This document shows, piece by piece, positions 696 to 4,008 of a stretch of DNA of 4,008 bases. The position numbers and the translations under genes were made by a program. The notes beneath the pieces were generated by a model. The model had not been told where the DNA came from and ran no database searches. It saw only the letters and a list, made by a program, of their open reading frames with translations. The stretch comes from a virus (taxonomy: Duplodnaviria > Heunggongvirae > Uroviricota > Caudoviricetes). The stretch is taken from IMG/VR virus record IMGVR_UViG_3300014784_000118, one strand, 5' to 3'. Every line of letters starts with the position of its first letter. Position 1 is the first letter of the stretch.

Positions 696-995
696 ATGAA
701 ACTTAAATATTCTGGCTTAACTGCCAGTGGCAAAACTCGCACTAAATTCATGCGCGGTGATATTTACCGCGACCAGTACGGCGGCACGGTAATGATTAAG
801 GGCGTGGCGGGACGGTGCGTAACTTACCGCCGTGAAGGTTACGAATATGATTGCGTGATGCCTGTTTATCAGTTCCGGCGTGATTTTTCTCTGGTACAGA
901 CCGCGCCGCATAACGTGCCCACCAGCAACGCCAGGGCACGGGCAAACATCCAGAAGCTGAAAACCATGGTTAACGGATTCAGGGGCAAGAAATGA
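696..995 (+). CDS. hypothetical protein (99 aa), translationally coupled to rep
   Basis: ATG at 696 with SD GGAGA (682-686). Its stop TGA (993-995) overlaps the rep start ATG (992-994) as ATGA. The protein is basic with G/R/Y-rich segments; no family assignment is possible by eye. Confidence 0.55.
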   Translation: MKLKYSGLTASGKTRTKFMRGDIYRDQYGGTVMIKGVAGRCVTYRREGYEYDCVMPVYQFRRDFSLVQTAPHNVPTSNARARANIQKLKTMVNGFRGKK

Positions 996-2392
996 AAAGC
1001 GCACCGAACTTAAAAAAACAGCCTTACGACAAGATGACCGAAGTCATTATTTTTGCGGGTAGTGATGCCTGGGCACATGCGAAACAGTGGCAGGAACAGG
1101 ACGGGCGACTGGCTGGCGATAATGTGCCTCCCGTTGTGCTGGCTGATGATCAACTGGATGAACTGGCAGACCTGAGAATCATCGACGAGGGGCGCTATTG
1201 TGTCCGGCTGTACAAGGCAGGCCACATCAGGCCATCAAATATTAATGCCATTGCGCACAAGCTGGCGGCGGCGGGTGTAACTGATGCGAATTATTACCCC
1301 GAAGGGATGCACAGCCATATGCGGGAGAACTGGCGCGAATACCTGGAACGGGTGCGCGGGAAAGAGCCGGCGGAAGAAAAAAACCACCAGCGAAAAACCA
1401 CGCTACCGATGAGCGTTGGATCTACCGGATACGACACGCAACTGGATTACGTGGTTAAGGGGATTATTCCGGCGGTATCGCTATGCAGCATATACGGGGC
1501 TAGCGGGTCCTATAAATCATTCCTTGCCGGATCGTGGGCGTGCCATGTTGCCACTGGTCGCCAGTGGGGAGGCCGCAGGGTTGCACATGGTGCGGTTCTC
1601 TATGTGGTTGGTGAAGGCGGTATCGGCGTTCCGCGTCGTGTAAAAGCCTGGGAGGTTGTGCACGGTGAGCAGGTGAAAAATCTGTATCTGGTAAACCGTC
1701 CCATCTTTCCGGCTGTCCCGCTTGATGTTGATGAACTGGTTATTGCTGCCAGTCAGGTGGAGAGGGAAACGGGTAAACCTGTTCGCATGATTATTCTGGA
1801 CACGCTGGCGCGCTGCTTTGGCGGCAATGATGAAAATGACTCCCGCGACATGGGGGCGTTTATCCGTGGGTGTGACGAACTGAAACGACGCACAGGGGCC
1901 ACGGTGCTGGTGGTTCACCATTCCGGCAAGGATGAGACGAAAGGCGCGCGCGGTTCCAGTGCATTTCGTGCATCACTGGATGCTGAATACCGGATACGCA
2001 GGGAGGACGCAGGAAGCGAAGCGCTGGTTATCTCATGCACCAAAATGAAGGACGCGGAGGAACTCAAAGAAGCCGCATATGACTTACGCGTGGTGGAGCT
2101 TTTTACCGACGCTGACGGGGAGTTAATCACGTCGCTGGTGGTGGTGGATAAGCCGCGCCCTCCCGTTGAACTGGAGCGCATCGAGGAGGCAGGCAACAAG
2201 ACGGAAAACCATACCGCGCTATGGGGGTGCATACGTTCACGCACACAGCACGGCGACAAGTGCACGATCCCGCTGTTACGTGACGATATGAAAAAGCTGG
2301 GGTATGACACAAAACACCTTAAACGATGGTTAGCCAAACTGGAAAAAGACGACGTGATCTACATTGACGGTGATGATGTAGGACCACTGTAA
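992..2392 (+). CDS. replication initiator / RepA-like AAA-type (RecA-fold) ATPase-helicase, 466 aa
   Basis: Walker A GASGSYKS at nt 1496-1519 (aa 169-176). Walker B hydrophobic run plus Asp (RMIILDT, D270 at nt 1799-1801). HHSGK motif (aa 309-313), typical of RepA/DnaB-like AAA_25 helicases. The C-terminal about 60 aa is basic and helical, consistent with a winged-helix DNA-binding domain. An iteron array lies immediately 3' of the stop codon. The N-terminal about 140 aa has no motif I can recognise. Confidence 0.8.
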   Translation: MKSAPNLKKQPYDKMTEVIIFAGSDAWAHAKQWQEQDGRLAGDNVPPVVLADDQLDELADLRIIDEGRYCVRLYKAGHIRPSNINAIAHKLAAAGVTDANYYPEGMHSHMRENWREYLERVRGKEPAEEKNHQRKTTLPMSVGSTGYDTQLDYVVKGIIPAVSLCSIYGASGSYKSFLAGSWACHVATGRQWGGRRVAHGAVLYVVGEGGIGVPRRVKAWEVVHGEQVKNLYLVNRPIFPAVPLDVDELVIAASQVERETGKPVRMIILDTLARCFGGNDENDSRDMGAFIRGCDELKRRTGATVLVVHHSGKDETKGARGSSAFRASLDAEYRIRREDAGSEALVISCTKMKDAEELKEAAYDLRVVELFTDADGELITSLVVVDKPRPPVELERIEEAGNKTENHTALWGCIRSRTQHGDKCTIPLLRDDMKKLGYDTKHLKRWLAKLEKDDVIYIDGDDVGPL

Positions 2393-2591
2393 AAAGTGGG
2401 CATTAAAAGTGGGAAAGGTGGGAAATTTAACGTAATTTTAACAAAATTACCCACTTTCCCACGTGTATATATCCCAAAAAGTGGGCACTAAAAAAATACC
2501 TATGAAACAAGATGATATAAATCCCAAATTTCCCACGTTGGACGAAGTGGGAAAACGTAAAAAGTGGGCGAAAAAAGTGGGTAGAGGTGGG
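2393..2591. repeat. iteron array / putative origin of replication (ori)
   Basis: Direct repeats with an (A)nAGTGGG or AGGTGGG core: GTGGG at 2396-2400, 2409-2413, 2418-2422, 2481-2485, 2547-2551, 2564-2568, 2577-2581, 2587-2591. Inverted copies with a CCCAC core at 2450-2457, 2455-2463 and 2529-2537. AT-rich spacer 2423-2449 (aaatttaacgtaattttaacaaaatta), a possible unwinding element. An ATCCCAAA 8-mer is repeated at 2471-2478 and 2521-2528. The position right after rep matches the usual ori placement in PICIs and iteron plasmids. Confidence 0.7.
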
Positions 2592-2594
2592 CAA

Positions 2595-2846
2595 ATGACT
2601 CAAAAACACAGAGACAGAACAGAGCCAAAATATAAAGCGTTAGACATGACAGAGCACGCCTTAAAGGTGGCAATCAGAACGATAGACCGCCACGCGGGGG
2701 AAGGATACGCGAAGGAACATCCCGACCTGATAAGCGCATTCATGACCACGACGGCGGCAAATTTTGCCACGCTGACAGAGCGGGAGATTGCGGAAGCTGA
2801 ACAGGTGACAACCATCAACGTTAAAAACGTAGAGGTGGAATCATGA
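2595..2846 (+). CDS. hypothetical protein (83 aa)
   Basis: ATG at 2595 preceded by GAGGTGGG (2584-2591), which serves as SD and is also the last iteron copy. The stop TGA 2844-2846 overlaps the ssb start ATG 2843 (ATGA coupling). The in-frame upstream start at 2463 would translate the iterons and is rejected. Confidence 0.55.
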   Translation: MTQKHRDRTEPKYKALDMTEHALKVAIRTIDRHAGEGYAKEHPDLISAFMTTTAANFATLTEREIAEAEQVTTINVKNVEVES

Positions 2847-3265
2847 CAGCACAGATAGCGGCTTACGGGCGGCTGGTGGCTGACCCACAGTTAAAGACCA
2901 CCAGCAAGGGCACACAAATGACGATGGCGAGTATGGCTGTCCCCCTGCCGTGCAGCCAGGCAGATGACGGAACGGCTACGATGTGGTTATCCGTCCTGGC
3001 GTTTGGCAGACAGGCCGACGCACTGGCAAAACACCGCAAAGGCGAGCTGGTGAGCGTGGCGGGTAACATGCAGGTAAGCCAGTGGACAGGCCAGAACGGC
3101 GAAACGCGGCAGGGCTGGCAGGTTATCGCAGACAGCGTAATCAGTGCGAGAACGGCGCGACCGGGCGGCAAAAAAGGCCAGCAGGGGCAGGCTACTGACG
3201 CACTGAACAGGGCAAAACAACAGGCGGGGAATGATGATCCGTACGGGGATAACATACCGTTTTAA
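2843..3265 (+). CDS. ssb: single-stranded DNA-binding protein (SSB-like, OB-fold), 140 aa
   Basis: The N-terminal about 105 aa follows the SSB OB-fold pattern: (I/V)xxxGRLxxDPxL near the N-terminus, then WLSVLAFGRQAD...KGELVSVAGNMQVSQWTGQNGETRQGWQVIADSV, paralleling E. coli SSB WHRVVLFGKLAE...KGSQVYIEGQLRTRKW. A Gly/Gln-rich linker follows, and the C-terminal tip ...DDPYGDNIPF resembles the canonical SSB DDDIPF tail. SD GAGGTGG lies upstream. Confidence 0.8.
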   Translation: MTAQIAAYGRLVADPQLKTTSKGTQMTMASMAVPLPCSQADDGTATMWLSVLAFGRQADALAKHRKGELVSVAGNMQVSQWTGQNGETRQGWQVIADSVISARTARPGGKKGQQGQATDALNRAKQQAGNDDPYGDNIPF

Positions 3266-3280
3266 GCAACGAGTGACAGA

Positions 3281-3303
3281 AGCCGGAGAAATCCGGCTTT
3301 TTT
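3281..3303 (+). terminator. rho-independent terminator after ssb
   Basis: Perfect 7-bp stem AGCCGGA (3281-3287) / TCCGGCT (3292-3298) with a GAAA tetraloop, followed by a T-run (3298-3303), 16 nt after the ssb stop codon. Confidence 0.65.
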
Positions 3304-3507
3304 GTAGGTACTCCTGGTGGGGGTGGCCTGTCCACGGGGCGGAGGGGCGCGGAAAAAGGCGCATTTTTTGATTTTTATGGCACCATCACCACCACTATAA
3401 GTTATTGATATGTTGAGAAATAAAAATTTTTAGTGTCGAATCAGGTTGTTTTTTGTTCATCACCGGAACGTTCCCGAAAACATTTACAAAAAACAGGCGC
3501 AAAAAAA

Positions 3508-3540
3508 GCGCCCCCGATTGCTGTTACCGGAGGCGCTTTT
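3508..3540. terminator. hairpin with flanking A/T runs (possible bidirectional terminator or regulatory hairpin)
   Basis: Stem GCGCCCCC (3508-3515) / GGAGGCGC (3529-3536), 7 of 8 pairs, with a 13-nt loop. It is followed by TTTT on the + strand and preceded by A7 (3501-3507), which gives T7 on the - strand. No minus-strand gene is evident downstream to use it. Confidence 0.3.
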
Positions 3541-3657: not shown

Positions 3658-3731
3658 CAGGTAGAAAATGATTTATCTATTACTTTTATCGATCAATAAT
3701 GATGCCCGTTAATCAAAACGGAGGCGGATTT

Positions 3732-3926
3732 ATGCCAGAGAACAACACCAGAAAGCCGGATAAAAGTGCCACGGTACACATAGACGCCGGAACTATGGAG
3801 AAGATCGAACGCTATCAGCAGTTCATCAAAGATAATCACCCGGGTATGCCAGTACCCACGAAAGGACAAATCACACGCAGCGCGGTTGAATACTGGTACA
3901 GGGCAACGTTAGGGGTCTGGCTATGA
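3732..3926 (+). CDS. hypothetical small protein (64 aa), possible ribbon-helix-helix DNA-binding protein
   Basis: ATG at 3732 with a strong SD GGAGG (3720-3724, 7-nt spacing). The ATG at 3699 on the ORF track lacks an RBS. The pattern short beta-strand (ATVHID), helix (GTMEKIERYQQFIKDN), loop, helix (ITRSAVEYWYRA) suggests an RHH fold. Its stop overlaps the next start (ATGA at 3923-3926). Confidence 0.5.
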   Translation: MPENNTRKPDKSATVHIDAGTMEKIERYQQFIKDNHPGMPVPTKGQITRSAVEYWYRATLGVWL

Positions 3927-4008
3927 AAACATGGTTTTCCATTAAGGCTATGGCAGATGTTGTCTATGTGCGCATTTATGACGAGATCGGCGGGTACGGT
4001 GTAAAAGC
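3923..4008 (+). CDS. partial CDS (N-terminus only, runs off the window end); possible ClpP/S14-family prohead (head maturation) protease
   Basis: ATG at 3923 with SD AGGGG (3911-3915), translationally coupled to the upstream gene. The N-terminus MKTWFSIKAMADVVYVRIYDEIGGYGV contains the (I/L)YDEIG...GV motif characteristic of the start of ClpP-like phage prohead proteases. Only 28 codons are visible, so the family call is tentative. Confidence 0.4.
   Translation, partial: MKTWFSIKAMADVVYVRIYDEIGGYGVK

What the first reader, a model, noticed from the sequence alone, without database searches (positions are those of the whole stretch)
2843..3265. Element-encoded short SSB with a degenerate acidic tip (GDNIPF rather than DDDIPF)
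The OB-fold region aligns in pattern with bacterial SSB, but the protein is short (140 aa) and its C-terminal tip has fewer acidic residues than the canonical host SSB tail. That tail is the docking site for many host replication and repair proteins. A mobile-element SSB with an altered tip could selectively recruit or fail to recruit host partners, or act on the host or helper SSB interactome. It is co-transcribed with rep and the ori.
Basis: partly seen in the sequence, partly recalled or inferred. Interest (0 to 1): 0.5.

Follow-up and report, generated by a model that had tools for sequence, protein, structure and literature searches.

The report
Phage-satellite SSB with variant tail tip
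This is a genuine but ordinary single-stranded-DNA-binding protein gene carried by a common E. coli phage satellite (PICI); its slightly less acidic tail tip is a conserved family trait, not a decayed one, and the gene is already annotated in public genomes.

Summary
The ORF at 2843-3265 (+) is real and encodes a 140-aa bacterial-type SSB. It scores Pfam PF00436 59.5 bits (cutoff 26) and TIGR00621 61.5 bits (cutoff 53.95). Its AlphaFold OB fold matches only solved SSBs, followed by a disordered tail ending NDDPYGDNIPF. The protein is identical to RefSeq WP_000126660.1. The gene has megablast matches in 1541 of 5426 complete E. coli genomes (≥80% of its length in 973). It lies in the replication module of EcCICFT073-type Gram-negative phage-inducible chromosomal islands (PICIs): int, AlpA/HTH, Icd-like, DUF4222, Rep, iteron ori, small ORF, SSB, terminator, cos-like site, capsid gene. 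The literature already lists SSB in that module.

The tip does have only one acidic residue in its last six (E. coli has three). It is not degenerate, however. Across 101 family members D(-5) is invariant, the aromatic at -7 is always present, I-P is 95-97% conserved, and D/E at -9 and -10 exceeds 90%. The N position (-4) is one of the most variable columns (N/D/G/E/S). The identical SSB sits behind three different initiator/ori cassettes, which argues against a Rep-specific tip. Selective partner recruitment remains an untested possibility. Ordinary; low interest.

The parts
2843..3265 (+). SSB coding sequence (140 aa plus stop), identical to RefSeq WP_000126660.1
   Evidence: ORF list; Pfam, NCBIfam and PHROG SSB hits; 100% identical protein in L001 and L003 annotated as single-stranded DNA-binding protein
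2843..3151 (+). OB-fold ssDNA-binding domain (residues 1-103). It keeps the equivalents of E. coli W54 (W48), F60 (F54) and W88 (W81). It lacks W40 (Q39) and H55 (L49), and its L23 loop is 5 residues shorter.
   Evidence: Alignment with E. coli and F-type SSB; AF2 pLDDT 82-92; Foldseek top 50 hits all SSBs, TM 0.65-0.81 normalised to the target
3152..3232 (+). Short disordered linker (residues 104-130). It is Gln/Lys/Gly-rich and is the site of indels within the family.
   Evidence: AF2 pLDDT below 50; family alignment shows cassette-like insertions and deletions here
3233..3262 (+). C-terminal tip DDPYGDNIPF (residues 131-140), the presumed docking motif for SSB-interacting proteins
   Evidence: Column conservation in 101 family members: D136 101/101, Y/F/W134 101/101, I138 96, P139 98, D131 92, D/E132 96; N137 is N48/D21/G19/E11/S2
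2832..2838 (+). Shine-Dalgarno-like GAGGTGG, 4 nt before the ATG
   Evidence: Read directly from the sequence
2595..2846 (+). Upstream 83-aa ORF of unknown function (PHROG 1231). Its stop overlaps the SSB start codon (ATGA). It is found in front of the SSB in all four E. coli islands compared here.
   Evidence: It was not found next to the SSB in the 33 loci from other species.
3279..3304 (+). Intrinsic-terminator-like hairpin (GAAGCCGGA-GAAA-UCCGGCUUU) plus U-run, 14 nt after the stop; probable end of the replication operon
   Evidence: RNA fold -14.9 kcal/mol centroid, z=-3.2 against shuffles; conserved in L001, L003 and L004
2393..2594 (.). Iteron-type replication origin: AAAGTGGG-type repeats in direct and inverted orientation around an AT-rich core, between rep and the small ORF
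   Evidence: Repeat families D1, D2, D7 and I1-I6. The layout matches the Gram-negative PICI ori described in PMC6092414.
992..2392 (+). Replication initiator, RepA-family helicase (AAA_25 ATPase), 466 aa
   Evidence: Pfam PF13481 E=5e-44; PHROG 2850; RefSeq name 'helicase RepA family protein'
3306..3383 (.). cos-like block (…CACGGGGCGGAGGGGCGCGGAAAAAGGCGCATTTTTT…) directly after the terminator; context only, not part of the SSB gene
   Evidence: Conserved after the SSB gene in L001, L003 and L004 and repeated after the capsid gene. One L004 copy is a lambda-type cosN (GGGCGGCGACCT). EcCICFT073 is reported to carry two cos sites (PMC6739421).

Best explanation
The ORF encodes a functional bacterial-type SSB. 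It belongs to the replication module of an EcCICFT073-type Gram-negative phage-inducible chromosomal island.

Shown:
- It has an SSB OB fold, a disordered linker and a conserved amphipathic C-terminal tip.
- It is the last gene of a same-strand block: DUF4222, Rep, iteron ori, small ORF, SSB.
- Its start overlaps the stop of the small ORF, and a terminator follows its stop.

Inferred: after a helper phage induces the island, the operon is transcribed and Rep opens the iteron origin. The island SSB then coats the exposed single strands. In this way it supplements a host SSB pool that is being drawn on by phage and satellite replication at once. Its I-P-F carboxy-terminus, D(-5) and aromatic (-7) dock into the same hydrophobic-pocket/basic-lip sites on host replisome and repair proteins that the host SSB tip uses. 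Affinities are probably somewhat shifted, because two of the three Asp residues that contact the 'basic ridge' are replaced (G at -6, N at -4) and the acidity sits further upstream (DD at -10/-9).

The SSB is an accessory factor, not a core replicon factor.
For: - SSB identity.
- Island identity and gene order. The Nissle 1917 copy lies in an island at tRNA-Pro/yejM with int, AlpA, P4-type primase, major capsid, decoration and terS genes.
- Literature: Mageeney 2023 places 'Primase, SSB and DUF5906' genes next to the mapped ori in the replication category of Gram-negative PICIs (PMC10111431).
- Purifying selection on the tip: D-5 101/101, aromatic -7 101/101, I 96 and P 98 of 101, acidic -9/-10 above 90%.
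- What those retained residues do: SSB-Ct sites consist of a Phe pocket, a basic lip for the alpha-carboxylate and a basic ridge for the Asp residues (PMC10164576). In the chi model, D173 (= D-5) pairs with R135 and F171 (= aromatic -7) fills a second pocket (PMC3045619). DnaG binding is mostly hydrophobic and H-bond driven, with only a 3-fold salt effect (PMC3632105).
- Linker length: about 27 residues, above the 11-20 residue minimum tolerated in E. coli.
- Accessory role: the cloned EcCICFT073 replication region, described as including rep and the putative ori, drives plasmid replication in DH5alpha (PMC6092414).
- Operon end: terminator.
Against: - No experiment was found on this protein: ssDNA binding, oligomeric state, expression timing and partners are all inferred.
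- The equivalents of W40 and H55 are missing, so the wrapping mode and tetramer stability may differ from E. coli SSB.
- Two 'basic ridge' contacts are lost: D172-K132 and the D174-R128 H-bond in the chi model. Binding to some host partners could therefore be substantially weaker than assumed.
- In relatives from other genera the tip diverges strongly: only 6 of 30 have [ILV]PF. A pure 'dock onto the conserved host proteins' model does not predict this.
- It was not checked whether the published EcCICFT073 rep-ori clone excluded the SSB gene.
Confidence: 0.72

Rival explanations
1. Selective-hub model. The altered tip was selected to change the partner spectrum. It would bind a cognate island or helper-phage protein, or only a subset of host SSB partners, rather than the whole host interactome.
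For: - Precedent: phage HK620 SSB has a variant tip (NDYPPF) whose last six residues are needed to recruit its cognate recombinase Sak4 (PMC5928155).
- G at -6 is specific to this family. In 39 xPF-tipped representatives of the wider clade, -6 is D in 30 and never G.
- In relatives from other Enterobacterales the OB domain stays 51-89% identical while the tip changes extensively (IPF, TPF, PPF, DDDF, EDDF, PEF). Rapid tip turnover is what partner switching would produce.
- A small conserved ORF of unknown function is translationally coupled to the SSB in E. coli islands and could be such a partner.
Against: - The identical SSB protein sits behind three different initiator/ori cassettes: RepA helicase, a 605-aa primase and a P4-type primase, each with unrelated iterons. 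The tip is therefore not matched to a particular Rep ATPase or origin domain.
- The position that makes the tip look odd (-4) varies freely, including D and E in 32% of family members. That looks like relaxed constraint, not tuned constraint.
- The elements most important for generic docking (I-P-F-COO-, D-5, aromatic -7) are all retained.
Confidence: 0.18
2. Interference or immune-evasion model. The SSB mainly acts on the helper phage or on host surveillance. It could compete with phage or host SSB for ssDNA and partners to hamper helper replication or recombination. Alternatively, its tip may have drifted away from the canon to avoid titrating ExoI/SbcB and setting off SSB-sensing defence systems.
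For: - Phage SSB or SSB-like proteins are reported triggers of defence systems. One example is AbpAB (PMC10732053, title and abstract). Another is DRT10, where a phage SSB-like protein with an FDDDIPF tip is linked to SbcB (bioRxiv 10.64898/2026.04.29.721553).
- PICIs are known to interfere with their helpers (PMC6739421).
- The tip diversifies quickly across genera.
Against: - There is no direct evidence.
- The gene has no PADLOC match.
- The gene sits in the replication module directly after the ori, not among the interference or packaging genes.
- The known E. coli PICI interference mechanism is Rpp acting on TerS.
Confidence: 0.07
3. Decaying passenger gene. The reduced acidity would mark a tail that no longer docks to anything, with the protein acting as a bare ssDNA coat or doing nothing.
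For: - Only one acidic residue lies in the last six, at the low end of relatives (2 of 39).
- rep plus ori appears sufficient for replication.
Against: - The tip motif is strongly conserved across 101 non-identical family members, and full-length reading frames are widespread in E. coli genomes.
- Total acidity in the last ten residues (3) is the modal value among relatives.
Confidence: 0.03

Closest known systems
SSB genes of EcCICFT073-type Gram-negative PICIs (for example the E. coli Nissle 1917 island at tRNA-Pro/yejM; RefSeq WP_000126660.1 and WP_000126681.1)
   Same: - Same protein (100% identical) or 91% identical.
- Same position after rep, the ori and a small ORF.
- Same downstream terminator and cos-like block.
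- SSB is already listed as a replication-category gene of these islands (PMC10111431).
   Different: Nothing of substance differs in the SSB. The window's island uses a RepA-family helicase and AAAGTGGG iterons instead of a P4-type primase. It carries a prohead protease/capsid fusion gene instead of lambda-type capsid, decoration and terS genes.
E. coli chromosomal SSB (P0AGE0; PDB 1eqq, 1eyg)
   Same: OB fold, with W54, F60 and W88 equivalents retained. Disordered linker. C-terminus with an aromatic at -7, Asp at -5 and I-P-F.
   Different: - Only 26% identity over the OB domain.
- 140 aa against 178 aa, with a linker of about 27 residues against about 56 that is not Gly/Pro-rich.
- W40 is Q and H55 is L.
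- The tip is GDN rather than DDD, with acidity shifted to -9 and -10.
F-type conjugative plasmid SSB (WP_001493864.1 on pWI2-incFII)
   Same: A mobile-element SSB with a tip that is also not fully acidic: …EGEDYGFSDDIPF, with the pattern acidic-acidic-x-aromatic-x-D-x-IPF.
   Different: The plasmid protein is a close relative of host SSB. It is 175 aa with a long linker, and only 23% identical to the window protein (E=6e-07). It is encoded in the conjugative leading region, not in a phage-satellite replication module.
Phage HK620 SSB with its partner Sak4
   Same: A mobile-element SSB with a non-canonical tip (NDYPPF) that still functions as a docking motif (PMC5928155).
   Different: In HK620 a cognate partner is encoded next to the SSB and has been shown experimentally. 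Here no partner is known, and the adjacent Rep varies while the SSB stays identical.

Membership tests
Bacterial SSB family (Pfam PF00436 / TIGR00621) | N-terminal OB-fold domain matching the family profile above the curated cutoff | tested here: met
   PF00436 59.5 bits against 26; TIGR00621 61.5 bits against 53.95
Bacterial SSB family (Pfam PF00436 / TIGR00621) | Three-dimensional OB fold superimposable on solved SSBs | tested here: met
   AF2 residues 1-103 at pLDDT 82-92. The Foldseek top 50 PDB hits are all SSBs, E down to 3e-09, target-normalised TM 0.65-0.81.
Bacterial SSB family (Pfam PF00436 / TIGR00621) | Aromatic ssDNA-stacking residues (E. coli W40, W54, F60, W88) | tested here: inconclusive
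   W54, F60 and W88 equivalents are present and near-invariant in the family (W48, F54, W81). The W40 equivalent is Gln.
Bacterial SSB family (Pfam PF00436 / TIGR00621) | Disordered linker followed by an amphipathic C-terminal tip ending in Pro-Phe | tested here: met
   The tail from residue 104 to 140 is low-confidence or disordered in the AF2 model. The tip ends …YGDNIPF and is conserved in the family.
Bacterial SSB family (Pfam PF00436 / TIGR00621) | Canonical acidic triplet in the hexapeptide (DDD-[IL]-P-F) | tested here: not met
   The hexapeptide is GDNIPF, with 1 acidic residue in the last six. 2 of 39 xPF-tipped relatives have 1, 20 have 2 and 17 have 3. This is a variable feature among mobile-element SSBs, so it does not exclude membership.
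Bacterial SSB family (Pfam PF00436 / TIGR00621) | Homotetramer that binds ssDNA with high affinity | not testable with these tools
   Needs purified protein. The H55 equivalent (tetramer stability in E. coli) is Leu.
Gram-negative PICI (EcCICFT073 type) | Integrase and AlpA/HTH regulator at one end, genes mostly on one strand, island of about 10-20 kb at a specific att site | tested here: met
   Not inside the window, but seen in the near-identical islands: L001 (in tqsA, about 10.5 kb), L003 (next to tRNA-Ile) and L004 (next to tRNA-Pro).
Gram-negative PICI (EcCICFT073 type) | Replication initiator followed immediately by an ori made of iteron sets flanking an AT-rich region | tested here: met
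   Iterons at 2393-2594 after the rep stop at 2392. Layout as described in PMC6092414.
Gram-negative PICI (EcCICFT073 type) | Phage-derived late genes and/or cos sites for packaging by a helper | tested here: met
   A prohead protease/major capsid fusion gene starts at 3924 and is annotated in L001 and L003. cos-like blocks are present.
Gram-negative PICI (EcCICFT073 type) | Induction, replication and high-frequency transfer dependent on a helper phage | not testable with these tools
   Experimental criterion. It has been shown for EcCICFT073 in the literature, not for this island.

The most novel reading that the evidence does not exclude
The SSB clade carried by Enterobacterales PICI-type satellites keeps a conserved OB domain but turns over its C-terminal docking tip unusually fast (IPF, TPF, PPF, DDDF, EDDF, PEF; GDNIPF in E. 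coli). This could reflect selection on which host, helper or immune proteins the satellite SSB engages. Examples would be avoiding ExoI/SbcB-linked or SSB-sensing defence triggers, or recruiting a still unknown satellite partner such as the translationally coupled 83-aa ORF. The tip would then be a specificity determinant rather than a neutral variant.
Probability: 0.15. Interest if true: 0.55.

Novelty: already known. Interest (0 to 1): 0.2.

Why it matters
It matters little as a discovery. The gene is an already annotated, very common component of a well-described class of E. coli phage satellites, and its presence there has been noted in print.

The useful outcome is the clarification that the tip is a conserved variant (DDP[YF]GDxIPF), not a decayed one. 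A second useful point is that the same SSB cassette recombines freely with different initiator/origin cassettes.

If tip variation in satellite SSBs did turn out to set partner specificity, it would offer a natural series of variants for dissecting how the SSB interactome is read. It might also show how satellites share or compete for the host replisome with their helper phage.

Tried and rejected
- Megablast of the whole window against the phage collection gave no match. tblastn of the SSB against phages found only SSBs about 30% identical. The gene therefore belongs to satellites or islands, not to sequenced phages.
- An Rfam scan of the window at E≤1 found nothing credible.
- A PADLOC scan of all window proteins gave no hit, so there is no support for a defence-system role.
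- The antisense and overlapping ORFs (2863-3255 −, 2987-3364 −, 3231-3371 +) have no Pfam hit and one negligible PHROG hit. They were rejected as genes.
- The simple terminator scan missed the hairpin after the SSB stop. Folding the stretch directly showed it.
- The idea that the tip is co-adapted to the neighbouring Rep was considered. It was largely rejected, because the identical SSB follows three unrelated Rep C-terminal/ori cassettes. The three Reps do share an N-terminal domain of about 130 aa, which I could not test as a docking site.
- The 83-aa upstream ORF was looked for next to SSB homologues in 33 loci from other species and not found. It is therefore not a universal SSB partner.
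- No complex (multimer) prediction was possible with the tools, so tip docking was not modelled.

Full report
**Observation**

The window contains an ATG-initiated ORF at 2843-3265 on the + strand. A GAGGTGG Shine-Dalgarno-like element lies 4 nt upstream. The start codon overlaps the stop of an 83-aa upstream ORF (ATGA at 2843-2846).

ORF length alone would not be significant, because two other ORFs of at least 140 aa in the list are probably spurious antisense frames. The family evidence is unambiguous, however.
- Pfam SSB PF00436: E=3.7e-16, 59.5 bits against a gathering score of 26.
- NCBIfam TIGR00621: 61.5 bits against a cutoff of 53.95.
- PHROG 44 'single strand DNA binding protein': E=2e-39.
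- phmmer hits to 26 solved SSBs, including those of Thermus, Thermotoga and E. coli.

An AlphaFold2 model built on a 31-sequence family alignment has residues 1-103 at pLDDT 82-92 as a beta-barrel with one helix, and residues 104-140 below 50. All of its 50 best Foldseek matches in the PDB are bacterial SSBs. The antisense ORFs across the same stretch have no credible family match.

**What the element is**

The window has no megablast match in the phage collection. It matches 1836 of 5426 complete E. coli genomes, almost always on the chromosome. The SSB gene alone matches 1541 genomes by megablast, and at least 80% of its length in 973. There are up to six places per genome, and the strains include Nissle 1917, ATCC 25922 and O157:H7.

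In E. coli 89-3156 the matching region is an island of about 10.5 kb that splits tqsA. Its gene order is: integrase, HTH regulator, several small ORFs, Icd-like, DUF4222, 'helicase RepA family protein', a small ORF, 'single-stranded DNA-binding protein' WP_000126660.1, then a 'ClpP-like prohead protease/major capsid protein fusion'. The same SSB protein (100% identical) occurs in strain E2855, in an island next to tRNA-Ile.

A 91% identical copy occurs in Nissle 1917, in an island next to tRNA-Pro/yejM. That island carries integrase, AlpA, a P4-family primase, major capsid, head decoration and small terminase genes. This is the layout of the Gram-negative phage-inducible chromosomal islands typified by EcCICFT073 (PMC6092414; PMC6739421).

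Several features agree with that description.
- The 203 bp between rep and the small ORF (2393-2594) hold AAAGTGGG-type iterons in direct and inverted orientation around an AT-rich core. This is the origin organisation reported for these islands.
- A strong hairpin plus U-run follows the SSB stop (3279-3304; z=-3.2).
- Directly after it lies a conserved cos-like block (…CACGGGGCGG…). It recurs after the capsid gene in the related islands, and one Nissle copy is a lambda-type cosN. This fits the two cos sites reported for EcCICFT073.

Mageeney et al. already classify 'Primase, SSB and DUF5906' genes as the replication category of Gram-negative PICIs, colocalised with the mapped origins (PMC10111431). 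The gene is therefore both annotated and noted in the literature.

**The protein compared with E. coli and F-plasmid SSB**

I verified my copy of E. coli SSB against PDB 1eqq: 178 of 178 residues are identical. I took an F-type plasmid SSB from an IncF plasmid record.
- The window protein is 26% identical to E. coli SSB over the OB domain (E=1e-09).
- It is 23% identical to the plasmid SSB (E=6e-07).
- The equivalents of the DNA-stacking residues W54, F60 and W88 are present (W48, F54, W81) and near-invariant in the family.
- W40 is Gln, H55 is Leu, and the L23 loop is five residues shorter.
- The linker between the OB domain and the tip is about 27 residues, against about 56 in E. coli. It is Gln/Lys/Gly-rich rather than Gly/Pro-rich, and it carries cassette-like indels within the family. 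It is still longer than the 11-20 residues reported as the tolerated minimum in E. coli (PMC10164576).

The tips align as follows:
- E. coli: P-P-M-D-F-D-D-D-I-P-F
- Window: D-D-P-Y-G-D-N-I-P-F
- F-type plasmid: E-D-Y-G-F-S-D-D-I-P-F

The comparator plasmid SSB is thus itself not DDDIPF.

**Is the tip degenerate?**

Among 101 non-identical full-length family members from the homology search, the tail columns are as follows:

| Position | Residue(s) | Count |
|---|---|---|
| -5 | D | 101/101 |
| -7 | Y/F/W | 101/101 |
| -3 | I | 96/101 |
| -2 | P | 98/101 |
| -9 | D/E | 96/101 |
| -10 | D | 92/101 |

The terminal F is fixed by my filter, so it carries no information here. The -4 position is N in 48, D in 21, G in 19, E in 11 and S in 2. 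It is the second most variable column of the whole protein. The family motif is therefore DDP[YF]-G-D-x-IPF, and the N that makes the tip look odd is one state of an unconstrained position.

In 39 representatives of the wider clade that end in [ILVM]PF, the last six residues contain one acidic residue in 2, two in 20 and three in 17. The last ten contain three acidic residues most often, as the window protein does. Position -6 is D in 30 of 39 and never G. So the window tip is at the low end of hexapeptide acidity and ordinary in overall tail acidity. Its really family-specific feature is G at -6.

Published models assign D173 (= -5) and F171 (= -7) to contacts that are retained here. D172 (= -6) and D174 (= -4) make a salt bridge and a hydrogen bond to chi that would be lost or weakened (PMC3045619). 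DnaG binding is reported to be dominated by hydrophobic and H-bond contacts, with only a three-fold salt effect (PMC3632105). Some redistribution of affinities among partners is therefore plausible but unmeasured.

**Tests of the 'special partner' idea**

The identical SSB protein follows three different initiators:
- a 466-aa RepA-family helicase with AAAGTGGG iterons;
- a 605-aa primase-family protein with CTGTTCACC iterons;
- in the 91% copy, a 584-aa P4-type primase with GGTAGA-type iterons.

The three Reps share only an N-terminal domain of about 130 aa. The SSB cassette therefore recombines independently of initiator and origin specificity. This argues against a tip tuned to a given Rep ATPase or origin domain, though not against one tuned to the shared N-terminal domain.

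The 81-92-aa ORF in front of the SSB is conserved in the four E. coli islands compared (72-92% identity). It was not found beside SSB homologues in 33 loci from other Enterobacterales.

In those loci the SSB OB domain is 51-89% identical to the query, and many lie downstream of P4-type primases. The tips, however, differ widely. Only 6 of 30 have [ILV]PF, 16 of 30 end in PF and 27 of 30 end in F, with endings such as TPF, PPF, DDDF, EDDF and PEF. Fast tip turnover in this satellite-associated clade is the one observation that a simple 'dock onto conserved host proteins' model does not predict. It keeps the selective-recruitment reading alive.

Two precedents bear on this. The HK620 SSB tip NDYPPF recruits its cognate Sak4 (PMC5928155). 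Phage SSB-like proteins also act as triggers of defence systems (bioRxiv 10.64898/2026.04.29.721553). No PADLOC model matches any window protein.

**Most likely mechanism**

Shown: SSB fold, disordered tail, conserved amphipathic tip, position at the end of a same-strand rep-ori block, overlapping stop and start codons, and a terminator.

Inferred: on helper-phage induction the block is transcribed, Rep opens the iteron origin, and the island SSB coats the displaced strands. It recruits host replisome and repair proteins through its I-P-F carboxy-terminus, D-5 and Y-7. This adds SSB capacity at a time when helper and satellite replicate together.

The SSB is probably accessory. [quoted passage not shown] I could not verify that the published clone lacked the SSB gene. 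I put this explanation at about 0.72. The selective-partner model stands at about 0.18, an interference or immune-evasion role at about 0.07, and a decaying passenger at about 0.03.

**Novelty and verdict**

Its identification as an SSB is correct. 'Degenerate' is not supported, and the functional speculation is untested and partly weakened. The protein is identical to an existing RefSeq entry, is present in about a quarter of complete E. coli genomes, and belongs to a described satellite class in which SSB genes have been noted. I rate it 'already known', with interest 0.2.

The most novel reading not excluded is that tip diversification in satellite SSBs is adaptive and sets partner or immune specificity (probability about 0.15, interest 0.55 if true).

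Noticed in passing
window 992-1380 (Rep residues 1-130); L003 7654-8040; L004 6684-7080: Three otherwise different PICI initiators share an N-terminal domain of about 130 aa (63-76% identity). They are a RepA-family helicase of 466 aa, a primase-family protein of 605 aa and a P4-type primase of 584 aa. Their C-terminal parts and iterons differ. This points to modular shuffling of initiator specificity behind a constant N-terminal module.
   Followed up: partly
window 3306-3383; also L001 ~15230-15310 and ~17770-17850; L003 ~10465-10540 and ~13000-13080; L004 ~9465-9540 and ~11905-11985: A conserved block sits directly after the SSB gene: terminator hairpin, G-rich stretch, then CACGGGGCGG…GCGCGGAAAAA.GCGCATTTTT. 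It recurs after the capsid gene in each related island. One Nissle copy carries a true lambda-type cosN (GGGCGGCGACCT). [quoted passage not shown] The window copy reads GGGCGGAGGGGC instead of GGGCGGCGACCT.
   Followed up: partly
window 2595-2846 (+): An 83-aa ORF of unknown function (PHROG 1231, no Pfam hit) whose stop overlaps the SSB start codon. It is conserved in front of the SSB in all four E. coli islands compared. It was not found beside SSB homologues in 33 loci from other species.
   Followed up: partly
window 2393-2594: Iteron origin: AAAGTGGG-type repeats, at least eight copies in both orientations around an AT-rich core. The related islands have unrelated iterons (CTGTTCACC; GGTAGA/CTGTCTACC) at the same position.
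   Followed up: yes
window 3495-3540: A GC-rich hairpin flanked by A-runs on one side and T-runs on the other (AAAAAAAGCGCCCCC…GGAGGCGCTTTT). It lies in the 430-nt untranslated gap between the SSB and the next ORF and looks like a bidirectional terminator. Only weak, sub-threshold Rfam matches were found (ctRNA_p42d, 23 bits against 50).
   Followed up: no
window 3699-3926 and 3924-4008 (+): A 75-aa ORF (PHROG 4934, unknown function) whose stop overlaps the start of a ClpP-like prohead protease/major capsid fusion gene. That gene runs off the window end. So the satellite carries its own capsid-protease gene but, in the related island L001, no other recognisable head genes.
   Followed up: partly
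L006, L009, L017, L019, L034 (SSB homologues in Klebsiella, Enterobacter, Rosenbergiella): Some relatives end in …YDDDF or …HEDDF, with no Pro before the terminal Phe. This tail style departs markedly from the canonical bacterial SSB tip.
   Followed up: no
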